Of a stretch of DNA of 39,202 nt, positions 1 through 18,000 are shown in pieces. Where the stretch lies: the NCBI GenBank assembly GCA_964244895.1, contig CAXTKV010000019.1:1-39202 (forward strand), given 5' to 3'. This stretch comes from an uncultured Deinococcales bacterium. GTDB taxonomy: Bacteria; Deinococcota; Deinococci; Deinococcales; JAAFIG01. The stretch's first letter is position 1. Every line of letters starts with the position of its first letter. A program made the position numbers.

Positions 1-3000
1 GAGTTCACCGGCGCGTGGCCCTCGAAGATCACCGGTCCGGCTCCGAACGCCTCGTCGAACGACGTGGCGGTCGAGGAATTGCAGATCGTCTACGACAGCT
101 ACAAGCGCACCAAGTAGGCTGCGCTCCGGAGGGGGTCGCGTTGCTCCGCACCGAGTTCGAGTTCACCCTGCCGAACGGCTTCGTCGATGACCGCGGCGAT
201 TTGCACCGTCGCGGCGCGATGCGTCTGGCGACAGCGATCGATGAGGTCGAGCCGCTCTCGGATCCTCGGGTCAAGGCGAACGAGGCCTACCTGGGCATCG
301 CGTTGCTGAGCCGGGTCACCACCCGGCTCGGCAACGTCTCACCTGTGCCCCCCGAGGTGATCGAGCGCCTGTTCTCGGCGGATTTCGCGTACTTGCAAGA
401 ACTTTACGTCCGCATCAACGACGGCGCGATGATCGTTGAAACGGAGTGCCCGAACTGCGGCACGCGCTTCAGCCTCGACCTCGCCGCTCAAGACGAGGTG
501 GTGACGTGAGCGGCAGCTCGGGTCGGGGCAACCGAAGTGGGCCGGGTCGGAGCCAGAATGCGCAGGGCGCAGCACACGCCAGTCCAGACCCGGCGCTCAT
601 CGCCGAGAAGGTCTACCGCCTGTTGTTGGCGGACGCTCGCCTCTCGCGGGCGCGCGGCGAACTTCCGCGCTCGCGCAAGCGCTAGCAATACCGTCCCTGA
701 CGGAGCCCCAGAACCGAACGCAGGCTCGGGAGAATCCGACACCGACTGACACGAGGCGACATCGTCGGGCACGAATTTCAGAACGACAACAGAGGATGCC
801 CTCATGGCCGAAAAATACGTTGAAAATTCCGATGAGGTCAAAACAGTTCACGGCAGCAACCGCTTTTACATCGAGATCGATTCAAAAACGAGCGCCGTCT
901 TCACCGAAGTAAATGGCCTGTCCGTCGAGACCGAAGTGACGGAGTACATGGAGGGCGGCTACAACGATTACGTTCACAAACTGCCTGGCCGGACGAAGAT
1001 CGGGAACGTCACACTCAAGCACGGGGTCACGAATTCACCGGATCTGCTCGAGTGGTTGATCAAGGTCACACAAGGAAAGATCGAACGCCGGAACGTCTCG
1101 GTCGTGGTCTACGGTCGCGATCCCAAAGGCGGCAGCAAAGAACTCGTGCGCTACAACTTCAACCTCGCCTACCCGGTCAAGTGGACCGGGCCGCAACTCT
1201 CCGCCTCGAGCACCTCGGTCGCCATCGAGACGCTCGAGCTGGCGCACGCGGGCTTCAGCCTGAGCAAGAAGTGAGGCGGAGGTGACCCGACCCAGCCGCC
1301 CCGCCTCGAGTGCCCGACCGCTCCAGGGGCGGGGCGTACACGCCTGGGCCGAACGGCAGCGTCGGTTTCTGCGCTCGCTCGCTGTACGGCAACCGCTGCT
1401 CGCGCGTCTCGCACCGAGGTTCGTTGCGCGGGTTTTCGGGGTGGTCTCGGCCTCAGGGCCAGGCGTCGGCTTCGTGCCGCCCGTCAACCCCACCCGTCCG
1501 GGCGCGGCGCGGCGCGCATTTGTTCCCGCCCTGGCGGTTCTGTCCACCGGACGTTCCCAACTGCATCGCATAACCGAACGCTCGCACCCTGCCACGCCGC
1601 CTGAAGCGAGCCCTGAGCTGATCCCGACTCCCCTCCCCGCTGCGGTCGACGAAGCCAGTGATGAATTCGGGAGCGAGGTGATCGAAGGGTTGCCCTCACT
1701 GGAGGTGCCGTCCGTCGAGGATGCGCGCACAGAGCCAGTTGCGCTCTCGCCGTATGGCGAAGAGGCGGTTCCTGGAGAAGTTCCTTTCGGGGATCTCGAA
1801 TCTCTCGAGGAGGCGATCCTCGAGGGAGCAGCGCTCGATGAACCCGAACGTGACGTGAGCGATTCAGGATTCGATGCGGTTCCCAACGAGGCCGAGGACG
1901 CGCGCGGCGCGTCCACCGAGGATCGCGCGAACACGGGTGCGGATACGCTCGAGACCGCGCTACCGCCCTCACTGGTCGAGTCCGGTCTGGATCACGATCC
2001 TGAAGACGCCGCCCGCCTCCCCGAGGACCCGCCCCGCCCATCGAAACGCAAGTCCCAGCGCGCGCCCGAAGTGTCCGTTCGGGGAGAACCGGGGCTGCCC
2101 TCGATTCAGCCGATCGAAGTCGATCTCCAGGAACCGAATCTCGAGCCGGTCAAAGCGCGCCGTGGACGCAAATCCCCGAGCGCGACCCAAGATTCAAGCC
2201 AACCCCAGGTTCGGCAGGTCTTGGAAACCCAACAAATAACTCGAGCCATCGAAGCGCAACCCGTGAGCGAGATTGAGCTTCGGCCCGATGAGCGCGCAAG
2301 TCTCGAGGCGCCGCCCCCGGTGACGGAAATCCCCGAGGCTGGGGCGAGCGGGTTCGAGCGATCCACCCCGCTGGAGATCGCACCCGCTGGGGCGCCCGAG
2401 CCTACCGCCCTCAGAGGTTCAGACGCGACGGAGCCAGCGCCGAGCGAGGATCGGGCGGACTCGCTCGCCTATCGGACTGAGGGAGGGCTGGAAAGTCCGG
2501 ATCTCTCGCCGCAACCCAGCATGACGGATGCCCCACCCGCGCGGGCGCTCGAGGCGAAACCCGAGGGCGACCCCACGCCGCGACCTTTCGAGCCCACCGA
2601 AACCTCGCCTGAGCGCGCGCCCGAAACCATTTCGTCGCACGCAGAGCGCGGCGAACGGGGTCGGGGAGCCCGCCAGCCCACTTCCGAGCGACCGACCGAT
2701 CGAGTCGCGCCTGTAGGCGACGAGCCTGAGCGTCGCATCAAAACGAGGAATATCGTCCCAGACGATGTTCCTTCCGAATCAGAGAGGTCGGTCGATGCTC
2801 GCGCTCTGCTGCGCGACCCGGAGGTACGGCCCGGATCGGAGCTGACCGTTCGCCCCTTCGAGGCCGAGCGTGAACCCGGCTCACCCCCCGGTGTACAAGC
2901 GACCAGCATCGGTGCCGAGGGCGAGCCGCGCGCGCTCGAAGGGCTGAGCGACATGGGGCAGTCTCCGGTGACGGCACGAACGCCGCTCGAGGCACCACCG

Positions 3001-15000: not shown

Positions 15001-18000
15001 CCCCCCACCACACAGGATCGGGGCTCGAGCCCTGAGAAAACGCGAGGGCACCGTCCTGGACGGTGCTCTATAGGAGGCCTGAGCATCTCGCGCTGCACGT
15101 TTATTCCCGGAAGAGGTCAGCCGTGAGCGCCCTCACCATCGCCACCGTGAGCGCCGTGCTGCGCAGCCTCCTGGAGAACGGCCTGGCGGCGCGCGATGTG
15201 ACGACCGCCATCGGCGGGGACGTGCTGGTGAGCGCCATGCCACCCGACCGGATCGCGACGGGAGCGGAGGAAAAGCCGCAGCTCAACCTGTTCTTGTTCC
15301 AGGTTTCGGCCAGTACGGGCTTGCGGACACTCCCCGGACGCAAACCGGACGAGGGCAAGGGACCACCGTTGGCCCTCGAGCTGCACTACCTCGTCACAGC
15401 TTATGGAGCGCAGGACTACCAGACGGATATTTTGCTCGGCTACGCGCTTCAGATGTTCTTCGAAACGCCCGTGCTCTCGACCGAGACGATCCAGAGGGCC
15501 ATCAAGGCCCTATCCAAAAGCGGCGGCGGTCGCATGGTCGCGCCGGGGGTGGCGGCGCTCGCATCATCCGACCTGCCCGAGCGCGTGGATCAGGTGCGGA
15601 TCGTACCGCAGTTTCTGGATCCGGAGGCGTCGTCGCGCCTGTGGTCGGCGATGCAGGCGAAGCTTCGCCCGTCTGCCGCCTACAAGGTCTCCGTCGTGCC
15701 TATTGGGGCGCACTGAGGTCTGGTCGTGCTCACAGCTGATGTATTCGTCGATCAATCTCTCAAACCTAAACCGACACGTTCCAGGTCAACTGATACCGTG
15801 TGGGACAGCGATTCGAGCCCTCGGCTCCGAGGCAGACCCAAGGTTCAGGCCGTCTCGCCCGTACCAGGTTCTCGGCGGATATGTGCTCGCTCGGGCGGGA
15901 AGGCAGCCCCTTGGGGACGACGATCGATCTATCCCGAAGCTTCGCACCTTGAGCGTATTCGAGTCTCAGACAGAAAGCGGGAACCGTGAACGCAACAGAG
16001 ACATGGCACGAGAACCAGCTCAGCCTGATCGACGCGCTCGCCGGCATCCGTGCAGCGCTCGAGCGCCACATCGCCCGCTCACGGGGTGAGCCGCTCGAGG
16101 CGCTCCCGCATCCGGCTGCGAACACTGCACGGGTCGGTGGGCCGCAACTCGAGGCGCTCTGCCAGGCGTTTTCGCTCTCGCCCTTTGAGCGGGATGTGCT
16201 GGTGTTATGCGCCGGTGTGGAGCTCGACGCGAGCTTTCCGGCCCTCTGCGGCGCGGCGCACGGCGACCCAACGCGCACGCAGCCGACCTTCGGGCTGGCG
16301 CTCGCCGCCCTGCCGGGCGCGCACTGGAGCGCGCTCGGGCCGTTCGGCCCATTGAGGCGTTGGCGAATGGTAGAAGCTTCCCCCAACGGGACGCTGACGC
16401 AGGGCGCTTTGCGGATCGACGAACGTGTGCTCAACTATCTGGCAGGCGTGCCGCACGTCGATGCTCGCCTCGCCAACCTGCTCGAGCCAGTGCGCGGGGT
16501 GGAACTCGTGCCCTCGCAGCAAAACCTCACGGAGCGCATTGCCGCAGCCTGGTCGCGCGCAGCGCGCGGCGCGGCCCTGCCCGTCGTGCAGATCACCGGC
16601 GTGGACGCCTCGAGCGTCCGCGCGGTCGCCGTCAATGCCTGCGAGCGACTGAACTTGCGGCTCGCGGTCCTGCCAGCCGCGCTCGTGCCGATGGATGTGG
16701 GCGAACTCGAGACGATCCTGCGCCTCTGGGAGCGCGAGGTGGCGCTCGCGCAGGGGGCTCTGCTGGTGGATTGTTTCGCGCTCGACGCGCAGGACGCGCG
16801 CGGGGCGGCGGTCAACCGCCTGCTCGAGCGCGCAAACGGCCCGCTGATGGTCGCGGGACGCGAGCGACGCCGCGACCTGAGCCGCACGACCCTCAACTTC
16901 GAGGTCAAAAAACCTGACGTGCCCGAGCAGCGCCGCGTCTGGCAGGCTGCTCTCGAACGGAACGACCCGAGTGCCGACGCGCTGATCGACCCGCTGGTGG
17001 CGCAGTTCAACCTCGAAGCGACCCGCATTCGCGCCGTGGCGACCGAAGCCGCCGCCCAAACCGACTCGAACTTGGAATCCGATGCGCACGCGCTCGGACG
17101 CGCGCTCTGGGAAGCCTGCCGCCTGCACGCCCGCCCGACGCTCGAGGGTTTGGTGCAGCGCATCGACGGCGGTGCCACCTGGGACGACCTGGTGCTGCCA
17201 GGGGCGCAGCGCGAAGTGCTGGCCGACATCGCCAAGCACGTCCGGCATCGAGGCACCGTCTACGAGCGTTGGGGCTTCGGCGGGCGTAACCCGCGCGGGC
17301 TCGGGATCACGGCGCTGTTCGCGGGTCCCTCCGGAACGGGCAAGACGACCGCCGCCGAGGTGCTCGCGAATGACCTCAACCTCGACCTCTACCGTATCGA
17401 CCTGTCCTCGACGGTTTCCAAGTACATCGGCGAGACCGAGAAGAATCTGGGGCGAATCTTCGACGCCGCAGAGGCGGGTGGCGCGATTCTCTTGTTCGAC
17501 GAGGCGGACGCCCTCTTCGGCAAGCGCAGCGAGGTCAAGGACAGCCACGACCGCTACGCCAACCTCGAGGTCAGCTACCTCCTACAGCGCATGGAAGCCT
17601 ACGCAGGGTTGGCGATCCTGACAACGAATATCAAGAGCGCGCTGGACACGGCTTTCTTGCGACGCATCCGCTTTGTCGTGCAGTTTCCGTTCCCCGATCC
17701 CGCGCAGCGCGAGGAAATCTGGCGGCGCGCCTTCCCGAAGGACGCGCCGACCCATGGGCTCGTCTACGCCAAGCTGGCGCAACTGGCCGTCTCCGGCGGC
17801 AGCATCCGCAACATCGCGCTCTCGAGCGCCTTCCTGGCCGCCGACGAGGGCGCGCCCATCGGGATGCGGCATGTCCTTCAGGCCGCGCACGCCGAGTACG
17901 CGAAGCAGGAAAAGGTCATCACCGAGGCCGAGATCAACGGCTGGCTCGAGGGTTGACGCGATCGAGAACACCTGACTTGACGCGCCTTGTTTGAGACGTG

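What a model noticed while it worked through the whole genome (the two positions that open the first line are those of the whole stretch)
1..17956. Contractile injection system with an FHA-fused baseplate protein and an operon-encoded transmembrane Ser/Thr kinase
In the phage-tail-like (eCIS/CIS) operon on C19 the baseplate wedge protein (P2 gpI/Afp12-like) carries an N-terminal FHA phosphothreonine-binding domain, and the next gene, in the slot where tail fibres usually lie, is a 1108-aa receptor kinase (cytoplasmic Ser/Thr kinase + FHA, one membrane helix, Ig-like outer part). I read this as a contractile injection system that is docked to, or triggered through, the cell membrane by threonine phosphorylation, as the PpkA-Fha1 switch does for type VI secretion, rather than a free particle aimed by fibres. 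New would be a phospho-switch for the eCIS superfamily and a large clade of FHA-baseplate systems (Deinococcota, Chloroflexota) with a signal-cont [...]
Evidence so far: C19 operon (+ strand; continues from C16 sheath g00717 by 17-bp end overlap, call 17): tube g00820/g00823, DUF4157 protein g00824, CIS_tube g00825, VgrG g00826, PAAR g00827, gp25 g00828, Baseplate_J g00829, g00830 = FHA (27-93, 1.9e-17) + Tail_P2_I/Phage_Mu_Gp48 (173-330, 4e-13/1e-11), g00831 = Pkinase (22-276, 5e-31) + FHA (346-412, 4.5e-12) + NPCBM_assoc (440-519) + one hydrophobic helix at ~645-665 (own hydropathy scan) + ~440 aa Ig-like/Pro-Thr-rich C-terminus, then Pvc16_N g00832 and AAA ATPase g00833. No tail-fibre family in the operon. 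neighbours.tsv: Tail_P2_I within 2 genes of Pkinase in >=34 of 364 Deinococcales genomes (Tail_P2_I itself in >=58, call 158) and >=221 genomes overall [...]
(Added by a program. Inside this text positions count along the whole contig: contig position 1 is position 1 of the stretch shown here. "Call 12" and the like, gene names such as g00115 and contig names such as C1 are that model's own, and its searches are not shown. The text may have been shortened before it was handed on; [...] marks where a part breaks off. The agent that wrote the report below was given it as the finding of a first reader that could run no searches.)

Follow-up and report, generated by a model that had tools for sequence, protein, structure and literature searches.

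The report
Injection system with dead-kinase membrane adaptor
A phage-tail-like injection machine whose baseplate carries a phosphothreonine-reader (FHA) domain sits next to a membrane protein with a kinase-like domain, but in this genome that kinase has lost its catalytic residues, so it probably acts as a membrane docking scaffold rather than as a phosphorylation switch.

Summary
Window 1-17956 is a complete tail-like injection (CIS) operon. Its gpI/Cis12 baseplate protein has an N-terminal FHA domain. The next gene encodes a 1108-aa single-pass membrane protein: kinase-like domain, FHA, two Ig-like domains, one membrane helix, then an outer beta-sandwich region.

The interpretation needs two corrections.

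1. The lineage is published. Gaisin et al. 2026 describe a Chloroflexota/Deinococcota cytoplasmic CIS in clade IId, with particles seen free in the cytoplasm. They found no close homologue of CisA, the Streptomyces membrane protein needed for firing. Their main text mentions neither FHA nor kinase.

2. The window's kinase is a predicted pseudokinase:
- beta3 Lys->Arg, alphaC Glu->Thr, HRD->HGE, DFG->DFD, and a degenerate Gly-loop;
- none of 30 loci across its phylum keeps HRD, and 15 lack the catalytic Asp;
- Chloroflexota orthologues keep every motif;
- the Cis12 FHA has lost its conserved Asn in all 21 loci of the window's order, but in none of 10 Chloroflexota loci.

Best reading: a CisA-like membrane adaptor in the tail-fibre slot. 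It docks the baseplate through kinase-fold/FHA contacts and is no longer driven by its own catalysis here. This is a new variant of a known kind, and it can be tested experimentally.

The parts
3..509 (+). 3' part of a tube-like gene that starts on contig C16
   Evidence: No Pfam hit. Its homologues sit before the gp19 tube gene in related loci (tblastn 51-67% identity). The 17-bp C16/C19 overlap is confirmed, and the genome's only sheath hit is at the C16 end.
804..1274 (+). Tube protein
   Evidence: Phage_T4_gp19, 1e-40.
1282..4665 (+). 1127-aa DUF4157/eCIS_core protein with a long Pro/acid-rich N-terminal region
   Evidence: eCIS_core at residues 853-925, 1.1e-14. Sequence.
4746..5441 (+). 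CIS_tube protein (tube initiator type)
   Evidence: CIS_tube 2.5e-30. A LysM match is weak (0.005, below cut-off).
5452..7236 (+). VgrG-like spike
   Evidence: Phage_base_V 3.2e-27 and Phage_GPD 8.5e-12.
7561..7860 (+). PAAR spike tip
   Evidence: PAAR_motif 1.1e-23. ORF listed.
7972..8388 (+). gp25-like baseplate wedge
   Evidence: GPW_gp25 3.2e-26.
8385..10415 (+). Baseplate_J (Afp11/Cis11-like)
   Evidence: Baseplate_J 2.6e-14. 53-55% identical to the Chloroflexota loci.
10549..11550 (+). FHA-fused gpI/Cis12 baseplate protein: FHA residues 1-100, flexible linker about 101-148, gpI domain 150-333
   Evidence: FHA 6.2e-17 and Tail_P2_I 1.3e-12. The AlphaFold2 model has mean pLDDT 81.1, with FHA blocks at 95-97 and the linker below 50 at residues 106-136. 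FHA motifs are GR / SHRH / SREG, so the conserved Asn is replaced by Glu.
11651..12526 (+). Pseudokinase domain (residues 1-292) of the 1108-aa membrane protein
   Evidence: Pkinase 1.8e-30. Aligned to PknA/PknB it shows K->R, HRD->HGE, DFG->DFD and a degenerate Gly-loop, plus alphaC E->T. It is the only one of 13 Pkinase hits in the genome that lacks the beta3 Lys and the catalytic Asp.
12620..12910 (+). FHA domain (residues 324-420) with canonical phosphothreonine-binding motifs (GR, SRHH, SSNGT)
   Evidence: FHA 6.8e-12. Motifs. Model.
12932..13582 (+). Two cytoplasmic Ig-like beta-sandwich domains (residues 428-536 and 542-644)
   Evidence: FixG_C 1.7e-07 and NPCBM_assoc 1.7e-06. Model blocks mostly at pLDDT 83-94. 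Invariant residues G442, W472 and P548 across 44 homologues.
13583..13660 (+). Single transmembrane helix (about residues 645-670)
   Evidence: The only hydrophobic segment in the protein. Helix at 652-666 in the model.
13661..14977 (+). Outer part: three beta-sandwich domains, a Pro/Thr-rich disordered spacer (953-1013) and a last beta-sandwich (1019-1107)
   Evidence: AlphaFold2 secondary structure and pLDDT; sequence. This is the least conserved region.
15063..15716 (+). Pvc16_N cap protein
   Evidence: Pvc16_N 4e-36.
15986..17956 (+). AAA+ ATPase with winged-helix domain
   Evidence: AAA 9.6e-25 and WHD 3e-20.
30519..38713 (+). Second block of CIS-linked genes outside the reported span: three eCIS_core proteins (30519-32489, 33553-35586, 37859-38713), Pvc16_N + CarboxypepD_reg (32511-33332) and an M23 peptidase (36682-37680)
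   Evidence: Pfam. The same Pvc16_N-CarboxypepD_reg and eCIS_core genes lie next to a relative's CIS operon (L042).

Best explanation
This is a cytoplasmic contractile injection system of the Chloroflexota/Deinococcota branch of clade IId.

The gene in the tail-fibre slot encodes a single-pass membrane adaptor. From the N terminus it has a PknB-like kinase fold, a canonical FHA domain and two Ig-like domains, all in the cytoplasm. One membrane helix follows, then a variable beta-sandwich outer part on a Pro/Thr-rich spacer.

The baseplate wedge protein Cis12 carries an FHA domain on a flexible tether of about 50 residues. I propose that this tethered FHA and the adaptor's cytoplasmic part bind each other and bring the baseplate to the membrane, where firing is triggered. 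This is the job CisA does in Streptomyces.

In Chloroflexota the adaptor is an intact receptor kinase, so docking could be gated by threonine phosphorylation. In this window the kinase is catalytically dead and the Cis12 FHA has lost a conserved peptide-binding Asn. Docking here is therefore most likely phosphorylation-independent scaffolding, as with the YukC/EssB pseudokinase and the FHA domains of YukB/EssC. Any remaining phospho-input would come from another kinase and be read by the adaptor's own intact FHA, as with MviN-FhaA.

Shown here: gene content, domain order, residue losses, linkage and distribution. Inferred: binding, membrane docking, the trigger role and the cytoplasmic mode of action.
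For: **System and lineage**
- The CIS gene set is complete and no tail-fibre family is present.
- The operon is collinear with that of Thermogemmatispora carboxidivorans PM5 (L010), with 34-67% identity per gene. CIS particles were purified from T. carboxidivorans (strain not named in the part read) by Gaisin et al. 2026 (PMC12998442, section 23 read).

**Linkage of FHA-Cis12 and the kinase-like gene**
- The kinase-like gene follows FHA-Cis12 in 10 of 10 Chloroflexota loci.
- It does so in 11 distinct loci of the window's order.
- A gpI gene lies directly upstream in 22 of 30 loci across the phylum.
- The two genes also travel as a pair away from the main operon (L043, L045).

**Pseudokinase**
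- Alignment to PknA/PknB and to orthologues shows K->R, E->T, HRD->HGE, DFG->DFD and loss of the Gly-loop.
- All 12 other Pkinase hits in the same genome keep the beta3 Lys and the catalytic-loop Asp.
- Of 30 loci in the phylum, 0 keep HRD, 15 lack the Asp and 21 have Arg for the beta3 Lys.
- Of 45 database homologues, 29 are canonical, 14 are not, and 2 have no kinase domain at all.
- A quick maximum-likelihood tree puts the degenerate forms in at least three separate places.

**The dead kinase domain is kept under constraint**
- The ORFs are intact.
- Against P0125 the kinase domain is 62% identical, compared with FHA 60%, Ig 52-54% and outer part 42-49%.

**Co-variation with the Cis12 FHA**
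- The Cis12 FHA is GR/SRxH/SSNG in 10 of 10 Chloroflexota loci.
- It lacks the Asn in 21 of 21 loci of the window's order, and lacks the Ser residues too in four of them (L021, L023-L025).
- The adaptor's own FHA stays canonical.

**Topology and tether**
- One hydrophobic segment and no N-terminal signal-like segment.
- Models.

**Predicted complex**
- Adaptor residues 1-645 with Cis12 gave weak support: score 0.47 (runs 0.48, 0.47, 0.47) against a best control of 0.00 among 3 controls.
- The runs agree in at least 53% of contacts, and the partner's pLDDT is at least 60.
- The pass mark was reached by 116 of 157 solved complexes and 2 of 215 mismatched pairs. At 0.60 or under, only 18 of those 157 solved complexes reached it, as did both mismatches that passed.
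- My own alignments were used, so these calibration counts hold only roughly.

**Precedents (passages read)**
- The YukC pseudokinase domain co-purifies with the YukB FHA domains (PMC9600267).
- The MviN pseudokinase, phosphorylated by PknB, recruits FhaA (PMC12599244).
Against: - There is no experimental evidence for binding, membrane docking or a trigger role.
- The complex prediction gives only weak support and reports no interface.
- Cryo-tomography of related Deinococcota showed CIS particles unattached in the cytoplasm (PMC12998442, section 23). Any docking must therefore be transient or depend on conditions.
- The co-variation between kinase state and Cis12 FHA state is essentially one split between two phyla, so it is not statistically independent evidence.
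- Some relatives carry FHA-Cis12 in the main operon with no adjacent kinase-like gene. One example is L044, where a radical-SAM gene follows.
- Eight of the 30 phylum loci have no gpI gene directly upstream.
- A Glu in place of the catalytic Asp and an Arg in place of the Lys do not strictly prove loss of all activity.
- The tree is a quick search with a midpoint root and two long branches.
Confidence: 0.5

Rival explanations
1. The membrane protein is an active receptor Ser/Thr kinase. It phosphorylates a threonine that the Cis12 FHA reads, so phosphorylation switches docking or firing, as PpkA-Fha1 does for type VI secretion.
For: - The domain logic fits: kinase plus FHA plus an FHA on the baseplate.
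- Chloroflexota orthologues keep the Gly-loop, AIK, HRD, DFG and SPE motifs, and canonical FHA residues on both proteins.
- Their kinase-FHA linkers are longer and richer in Thr: mostly 3-6 Thr, against 0-3 in the degenerate forms.
Against: - In this window the beta3 Lys, alphaC Glu, catalytic Asp, DFG Gly and Gly-loop are all changed.
- None of 30 loci of the phylum keeps HRD.
- The Cis12 FHA lacks its conserved Asn.
- No PP2C phosphatase lies in the window, and the genome's three PP2C hits are on other contigs.
Confidence: 0.1
2. The kinase-like membrane protein is an envelope sensor or regulator that is merely co-transcribed with the CIS. It might act on expression or assembly through other partners and never touch the baseplate. 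The Cis12 FHA would then bind some other, possibly phosphorylated, cell protein.
For: - FHA domains and Hanks-type kinases are common in this genome, with 13 Pkinase hits.
- Some main operons in relatives lack an adjacent kinase-like gene (L044).
- In T. carboxidivorans a BTAD/Trans_reg_C (SARP-type) regulator lies next to the kinase gene.
- Published tomograms show unattached particles (PMC12998442).
Against: - The two genes are very consistently adjacent in two phyla, and they move together as a pair.
- Kinase state and Cis12 FHA state change in parallel.
- Kinase-less FHA-Ig-TM versions still sit after Cis12 (L011).
- The complex prediction gave weak support: 0.47 against a best control of 0.00.
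Confidence: 0.2
3. The outer Ig-like part works as a fibre-like binder of a released, extracellular particle.
For: The gene lies in the tail-fibre slot, and its C-terminal region is built of variable beta-sandwich repeats.
Against: - The protein has a 644-residue cytoplasmic part and a single membrane helix. It would therefore stay in the producer's membrane.
- The published lineage behaves as a cytoplasmic CIS that contracts on lysis (PMC12998442, discussion).
Confidence: 0.03

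Closest known systems
Chloroflexota/Deinococcota cytoplasmic CIS lineage within clade IId (Gaisin et al. 2026, ISME J, PMC12998442; abstract, sections 23-24, passages and one supplement searched)
   Same: The gene set and order match the T. carboxidivorans locus (L010); particles were purified from T. carboxidivorans in that paper (strain not named in the part read). No tail fibres are present. FHA-Cis12 homologues occur in taxa named there: Calidithermus chliarophilus (P0076), Roseiflexaceae (P0117, P0122) and Thermogemmatispora.
   Different: The paper's main text contains neither 'FHA' nor 'kinase'. It states that the firing mechanism may differ from Streptomyces because close cisA homologues are absent. 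The FHA-Cis12 and kinase/pseudokinase adaptor pair is the candidate for that missing part. I built no sheath + Afp11 tree to place the window.
CisA of the Streptomyces coelicolor cytoplasmic CIS (Casu et al. 2025, eLife, PMC12237407; passages read)
   Same: The gene lies just downstream of the baseplate genes in the fibre slot. The protein is single-pass with its N terminus in the cytoplasm and its C terminus outside. CisA is proposed to link the baseplate to the membrane and is required for firing.
   Different: [quoted passage not shown] The window's protein has folded kinase-like, FHA and Ig-like domains inside and beta-sandwich repeats outside. CisA is predicted to bind Cis11; here an FHA on Cis12 is the obvious partner. 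I did not test sequence homology because no CisA sequence was at hand.
YukC/EssB membrane pseudokinase with the FHA domains of YukB/EssC in type VIIb secretion (PMC9600267, passages; PMC12599244, passages)
   Same: A single-pass membrane protein with a cytoplasmic pseudokinase domain that binds FHA domains of a secretion-machine component and acts as a scaffold without catalysis.
   Different: It serves a different machine. The window's kinase fold is PknB-like (best PDB matches PknA/PknB) and gave no hit to the YukC Pfam family. It also carries its own FHA and Ig-like domains.
Threonine phosphorylation pathway of type VI secretion (PpkA kinase, Fha1, PppA phosphatase); recalled, and seen only as titles and abstracts in the listings
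   Same: A transmembrane Hanks-type kinase and an FHA protein encoded with a contractile machine. This is a plausible model for the Chloroflexota orthologues.
   Different: Here the FHA is fused to a structural baseplate wedge protein. The kinase is dead in this window, there is no locus phosphatase, and there is no type VI membrane complex.

Membership tests
Afp/PVC-like contractile injection system (eCIS/CIS superfamily) | Sheath, tube, spike (VgrG + PAAR), gp25, Baseplate_J, gpI, Pvc16 cap and AAA+ ATPase in one cluster | tested here: met
   Pfam hits. The sheath is at the end of C16, joined to C19 by a 17-bp overlap.
Cytoplasmic CIS, clade IId, Chloroflexota/Deinococcota lineage | Placement with Roseiflexus/Thermogemmatispora/Calidithermus systems by sheath + Afp11 phylogeny | tested here: inconclusive
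   I built no sheath + Afp11 tree. Collinearity and 53-55% Baseplate_J identity to Thermogemmatispora and other Chloroflexota loci point to this lineage.
Cytoplasmic CIS, clade IId, Chloroflexota/Deinococcota lineage | No tail-fibre genes | tested here: met
   No fibre family among the 13 operon ORFs scanned.
Cytoplasmic CIS, clade IId, Chloroflexota/Deinococcota lineage | Particles stay and fire inside the producing cell | not testable with these tools
   This needs cryo-tomography. It was reported for relatives in PMC12998442.
Active Hanks-type Ser/Thr kinase (PpkA-like switch) | Gly-rich loop, beta3 Lys, alphaC Glu, HRD Asp and DFG | tested here: not met
   The window has SDDYGQV, TIRVI, E->T, HGE and DFD. 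Chloroflexota orthologues meet all of these.
Type VI-like threonine phosphorylation pathway | Cognate PP2C phosphatase encoded in the locus | tested here: not met
   No PP2C among the window ORFs scanned. The genome's three PP2C_2 hits are on C100, C54 and C4.
FHA domain able to bind phosphothreonine | Conserved Gly-Arg, Ser-x-x-His and Ser-x-Asn-Gly residues (residue roles recalled from the FHA literature) | tested here: inconclusive
   The adaptor's FHA has GR/SRHH/SSNG, so all are met. The Cis12 FHA has GR/SHRH/SREG: Arg and both Ser are kept, but the Asn is lost. Asn is present in 100 of 121 family members and Glu in 3.
CisA family | Sequence homology to Streptomyces CisA | not tested
   No CisA sequence was available to me. 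PMC12998442 reports no close cisA homologues in Roseiflexus.
CisA family | Gene after the baseplate genes; single-pass topology with the N terminus inside | tested here: met
   Gene order. One hydrophobic segment and a 644-residue N-terminal part made of cytoplasmic-type domains.
EssB/YukC pseudokinase family | Membership of the YukC/EssB sequence family | tested here: not met
   The Pfam scan gave Pkinase and PK_Tyr_Ser-Thr but no YukC family hit. The nearest structures are PknA/PknB. The likeness is functional only.

The most novel reading that the evidence does not exclude
In this CIS lineage tail fibres and CisA are replaced by a kinase-fold/FHA 'handshake'. Six tethered FHA domains on the baseplate rim dock the cytoplasmic particle onto a receptor kinase whose outer domain senses the envelope, and this docking triggers suicidal firing. 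The handshake began as a phosphothreonine-gated switch, which is still intact in Chloroflexota. It was then repeatedly hard-wired into a phosphorylation-independent pseudokinase scaffold, as in this window and much of Deinococcota.
Probability: 0.3. Interest if true: 0.8.

Novelty: new variant of a known kind. Interest (0 to 1): 0.62.

Why it matters
How a cytoplasmic injection system finds the membrane and decides to fire is an open question. In Streptomyces it needs CisA. The 2026 paper on the Chloroflexota/Deinococcota lineage states that no close CisA homologue exists there.

The pair described here gives that lineage a concrete candidate that is conserved across two phyla and can be tested:
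- an FHA domain tethered to baseplate protein Cis12;
- a single-pass kinase or pseudokinase adaptor in the fibre slot.

The lineage also offers a natural comparison between catalytically intact and dead versions of the same adaptor. That comparison could show whether phosphorylation gates firing, and how a signalling enzyme turns into a structural part.

Tried and rejected
- **Expression.** No RNA holder was listed for window 8385-15716. The three runs listed held only small shares of the sampled words (0.08-0.15), so I did not lay them.
- **Earlier scan notes.** Nothing was found by place, by words or by sequence.
- **Foldseek of the full-length model against the PDB.** It returned only PknB/PknA-type kinases and large Ig-repeat ciliary proteins, which says nothing specific about the Ig-like or outer domains.
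- **A conserved Thr docking motif in the kinase-FHA linker.** There is only a trend: degenerate forms have linkers of 37-57 residues with 0-3 Thr, and canonical forms have 21-104 residues with mostly 3-6 Thr. No conserved site emerged.
- **A locus phosphatase.** None was found.
- **A decaying system.** I rejected this because all ORFs are intact and the dead kinase domain is as conserved as the rest of the protein.
- **L009.** The kinase gene is broken into three frames there. I used it only up to the break.
- **L001 and L007.** Both are cut by contig ends.
- **Careful tree search.** It did not finish in the time allowed, so I report the quick tree.

Full report
**1. What is in the window**

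The + strand of 1-17956 carries a complete phage-tail-like injection operon (ORFs; Pfam):
- the 3' part of a tube-like gene (3-509);
- tube (804-1274);
- a 1127-aa eCIS_core/DUF4157 protein (1282-4665);
- CIS_tube (4746-5441);
- VgrG (5452-7236);
- PAAR (7561-7860);
- gp25 (7972-8388);
- Baseplate_J (8385-10415);
- a 333-aa FHA + Tail_P2_I protein (10549-11550), here called Cis12;
- a 1108-aa Pkinase + FHA + Ig-like protein (11651-14977), here called the adaptor;
- Pvc16_N (15063-15716);
- an AAA+ ATPase (15986-17956).

None of the 13 ORFs scanned hits a fibre family. The genome's single sheath hit lies at the end of contig C16. The reverse complement of that end overlaps the start of the window by exactly 17 bases.

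**2. Anatomy of the two key proteins**

*Cis12.* An AlphaFold2 model built with 86 aligned homologues has mean pLDDT 81.1. It shows:
- a confident FHA beta-sandwich at residues 1-100;
- a disordered linker, with pLDDT below 50 at residues 106-136;
- a helical gpI domain at residues 150-333.

The FHA therefore hangs on a flexible tether.

*The adaptor.* The model was built with 44 sequences and has mean pLDDT 81.2. It shows:
- a kinase fold at 1-292 and a linker;
- FHA at 324-420;
- two beta-sandwich domains at 428-536 and 542-644;
- one helix at 652-666;
- three more beta-sandwiches up to residue 949;
- a disordered Pro/Thr-rich spacer at 953-1013;
- a last beta-sandwich at 1019-1107.

A hydropathy scan finds a single hydrophobic segment and no N-terminal one. 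The whole 644-residue N-terminal part should therefore be cytoplasmic.

**3. The kinase is dead in this window**

Aligned to M. tuberculosis PknA and PknB (E 4.5e-33 and 1.7e-32), the window's protein departs at every catalytic motif:
- TIRVI where the kinases have the beta3 Lys;
- HGEVKPEN for HRDxKPxN;
- DFD for DFG;
- SDDYGQV for the Gly-rich loop.

In the alignment with orthologues, the alphaC Glu is a Thr.

This is not a trait of the genome as a whole. All 12 other Pkinase hits in the genome keep the beta3 Lys and the catalytic-loop Asp.

**4. Relatives**

*The FHA-Cis12 fusion is a large family.* A search found 491 proteins at E<=0.001, and all 120 listed carry FHA and Tail_P2_I. Source names include Ktedonobacteria, Thermogemmatispora, Roseiflexaceae and Calidithermus chliarophilus.

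*Chloroflexota.* In 10 of 10 Chloroflexota loci with the fusion, the adaptor gene follows directly.
- Eight of these have a full kinase domain, and all eight are canonical: GxGGMGQV, AIK, HRDIKPxN, DFG, SPE.
- L007 is cut by a contig end.
- L009 is frame-broken after the HRD motif.

*The window's own order.* Of 61 genomes, 14 have the fusion.
- In 11 distinct loci with the adaptor gene downstream, none keeps the catalytic Asp: HGE x4, HGQ x2, HGN x4, HWQ x1.
- One main-operon copy in a relative has HGD, two small genes after Cis12.

*The phylum.* Of 364 genomes, 49 have the FHA-Ig module. In the 30 loci fetched:
- all 30 have an N-terminal kinase-like domain;
- 0 keep HRD;
- 15 lack the Asp;
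- 21 have Arg for the beta3 Lys;
- 5 keep both Lys and Asp, but with HGD(I/L)NPEN;
- 22 have a gpI gene directly upstream.

*Database homologues found with the FHA-Ig region.* Of 45 proteins, 29 are canonical, 14 are not, and 2 lack a kinase domain altogether.

*Tree.* A quick maximum-likelihood tree of 50 sequences gives the following picture:
- The window sits in a four-member HGE clade (support 98).
- A separate eight-member clade holds HGD/HGQ/HWQ/HGE forms (support 96).
- Further degenerate forms (HGS pair, HGN, PWD) fall inside the HRD clade (support 97).
- Catalytic residues were therefore lost several times.
- The tree is a short search with a midpoint root and two long branches.

*Kinase-less forms.* An Acidobacteriota locus (L011) has a Cis12 without FHA. 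It is followed by a 693-aa protein with a weak FHA match, then a region matching adaptor residues 392-580 (the end of its FHA and the first one and a half Ig-like domains), one hydrophobic segment and a repeat-rich C-terminal region, with no kinase domain.

*What is conserved.* The constant core is FHA-Ig-Ig-TM, and the kinase domain is an add-on that often loses catalysis. Within the window's clade the dead kinase domain is as conserved as the other domains. Against P0125 it is 62% identical, compared with FHA 60%, Ig 52-54% and outer part 42-49%. It is therefore kept for some non-catalytic use.

**5. Co-variation with the baseplate FHA**

Across 121 family members, the Cis12 FHA residues are conserved as follows:

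| Residue | Conserved in |
|---|---|
| Gly30 | 121 |
| Arg31 | 119 |
| Ser45 | 118 |
| His48 | 120 |
| Ser65 | 118 |
| Gly68 | 121 |
| Asn67 | 100 |

The window has Glu at position 67, as do only 3 of the 121.

Locus by locus:
- All 10 Chloroflexota loci have GR/SRxH/SSNG.
- All 20 distinct loci of the window's order, and the window itself, lack the Asn (SREG, SEKG, SDKG, SQYG, SQFG, SEFG).
- Four of them (L021, L023-L025) lack the Ser residues as well.
- The adaptor's own FHA stays canonical almost everywhere.

The roles of these residues in phosphopeptide binding are recalled from the FHA literature and were not tested here. The pattern fits a kinase-to-baseplate-FHA link that has lost its phosphorylation dependence in this phylum. 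However, it is essentially one split between two phyla, so it is not independent statistical evidence.

**6. Predicted contact**

A complex job with adaptor residues 1-645 and Cis12, both supplied as alignments, returned 'weak support':
- The score was 0.47 (runs 0.48, 0.47, 0.47), and the best of 3 controls was 0.00.
- The runs agree in at least 53% of contacts, and the partner's pLDDT is at least 60.
- In calibration, the pass mark was reached by 116 of 157 solved complexes and 2 of 215 mismatches.
- At 0.60 or under, only 18 of those 157 solved complexes reached it, as did both mismatches that passed.
- My own alignments were used, so the counts hold only roughly.
- No interface was reported.

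**7. What is known**

- **Gaisin et al. 2026** (PMC12998442; abstract, sections 23 and 24, passages and one held supplement searched). They describe this CIS lineage in Chloroflexota and Deinococcota, placed within clade IId next to the Streptomyces cytoplasmic CIS. Particles were purified from T. carboxidivorans; my locus L010 is from strain PM5 of that species. Particles were also seen unattached in the cytoplasm of C. chliarophilus and D. aquatilis. The paper says the firing mechanism may differ because close cisA homologues are absent. 'FHA' and 'kinase' do not occur in its main text. The only 'kinase' in the supplement is phosphoglycerate kinase. Its figures are not held.
- **Casu et al. 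2025** (PMC12237407, passages). [quoted passage not shown] It is single-pass with a cytoplasmic N terminus, is required for firing, and is predicted to bind Cis11. 'FHA', 'phosphoryl', 'Chloroflex' and 'Deinococc' do not occur in that text.
- **Full-text searches.** None found this pairing described outside type VI secretion: 'contractile injection system'+FHA+kinase, eCIS+FHA, 'contractile injection'+Chloroflexi+Deinococcus, 'contractile injection'+pseudokinase, 'phage tail-like'+'FHA domain'+baseplate, and 'cytoplasmic contractile injection'+kinase. I did not read the dbeCIS and Geller et al. catalogues.
- **Precedents for a pseudokinase-FHA partnership.** The YukC/EssB pseudokinase domain co-purifies with the FHA domains of YukB/EssC (PMC9600267). 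MviN's pseudokinase domain, once phosphorylated by PknB, recruits FhaA (PMC12599244).

**8. Reading**

The most economical explanation is that the adaptor is the functional counterpart of CisA in this lineage. It would be a membrane anchor and trigger that meets the baseplate through the tethered Cis12 FHA.

In this window, and widely in its phylum, the enzyme is dead and the baseplate FHA is degenerate. The contact is then probably constitutive scaffolding of the YukC type. The adaptor's own intact FHA is left as the only plausible reader of phosphothreonine made by one of the 12 other kinases.

Shown here: gene content, domain order, residue states, linkage and distribution. Inferred: binding, docking, the trigger role and the cytoplasmic mode of action. 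I put this at 0.5.

The rivals:

| Rival | Odds |
|---|---|
| The adaptor is an unrelated sensor or regulator that is merely co-transcribed | 0.2 |
| The outer part is a fibre-like binder on a released particle | 0.03 |

**9. Verdict**

The system belongs to a published lineage. The FHA-Cis12 plus kinase/pseudokinase adaptor module appears to be undescribed. It offers a testable answer to how these cytoplasmic injection systems engage the membrane. I rate it a new variant of a known kind, with interest about 0.6.

Noticed in passing
window 30519-38713 (+): A second block of CIS-linked genes lies outside the reported span: three eCIS_core/DUF4157 proteins (656, 677 and 284 aa), a Pvc16_N + CarboxypepD_reg protein and an M23 peptidase. 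These are probably cargo or accessory genes of the same system. A relative's locus (L042) has the same Pvc16_N-CarboxypepD_reg and eCIS_core pair next to its operon.
   Followed up: partly
window 18012-29243 (-): A run of minus-strand genes separates the two CIS blocks. It includes a 990-aa protein with five PEGA repeats, CarboxypepD_reg and a beta-helix region, plus weak CsgG/FlgO-like N-terminal matches. Several ORFs have no Pfam family.
   Followed up: no
window 1282-4665 (+): The operon's DUF4157 protein is 1127 aa long. It has an N-terminal region of about 850 residues rich in Pro, Glu and Ala, and an HExxH motif inside the eCIS_core domain.
   Followed up: no
L043 (G006:C1) and L045 (G004:C10): In relatives the FHA-Cis12 and kinase-like genes also occur as a two-gene module away from the gp25/Baseplate_J genes. 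In L045 the pair lies upstream of CIS_tube, VgrG and PAAR, in a different gene order. Several genomes carry two or more FHA-Cis12 copies.
   Followed up: partly
L010:14291-15496 (-), Thermogemmatispora carboxidivorans: A Trans_reg_C + BTAD (SARP-type) regulator is encoded convergently, right after the adaptor kinase gene. That kinase's outer part gives weak beta-propeller matches (PQQ_2) instead of Ig-like repeats, so the outer domain varies between lineages.
   Followed up: no
L049-L052, L054 (genus g4 of the window's family): A second adaptor paralogue keeps the beta3 Lys, the catalytic Asp and DFG, but reads HGD(I/L)NPEN. It has no gpI gene directly upstream and might still be an active non-RD kinase.
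   Followed up: no
L009:10910-13104: In this Chloroflexia MAG the adaptor gene is split over three reading frames. This is either an assembly error or a broken gene.
   Followed up: no
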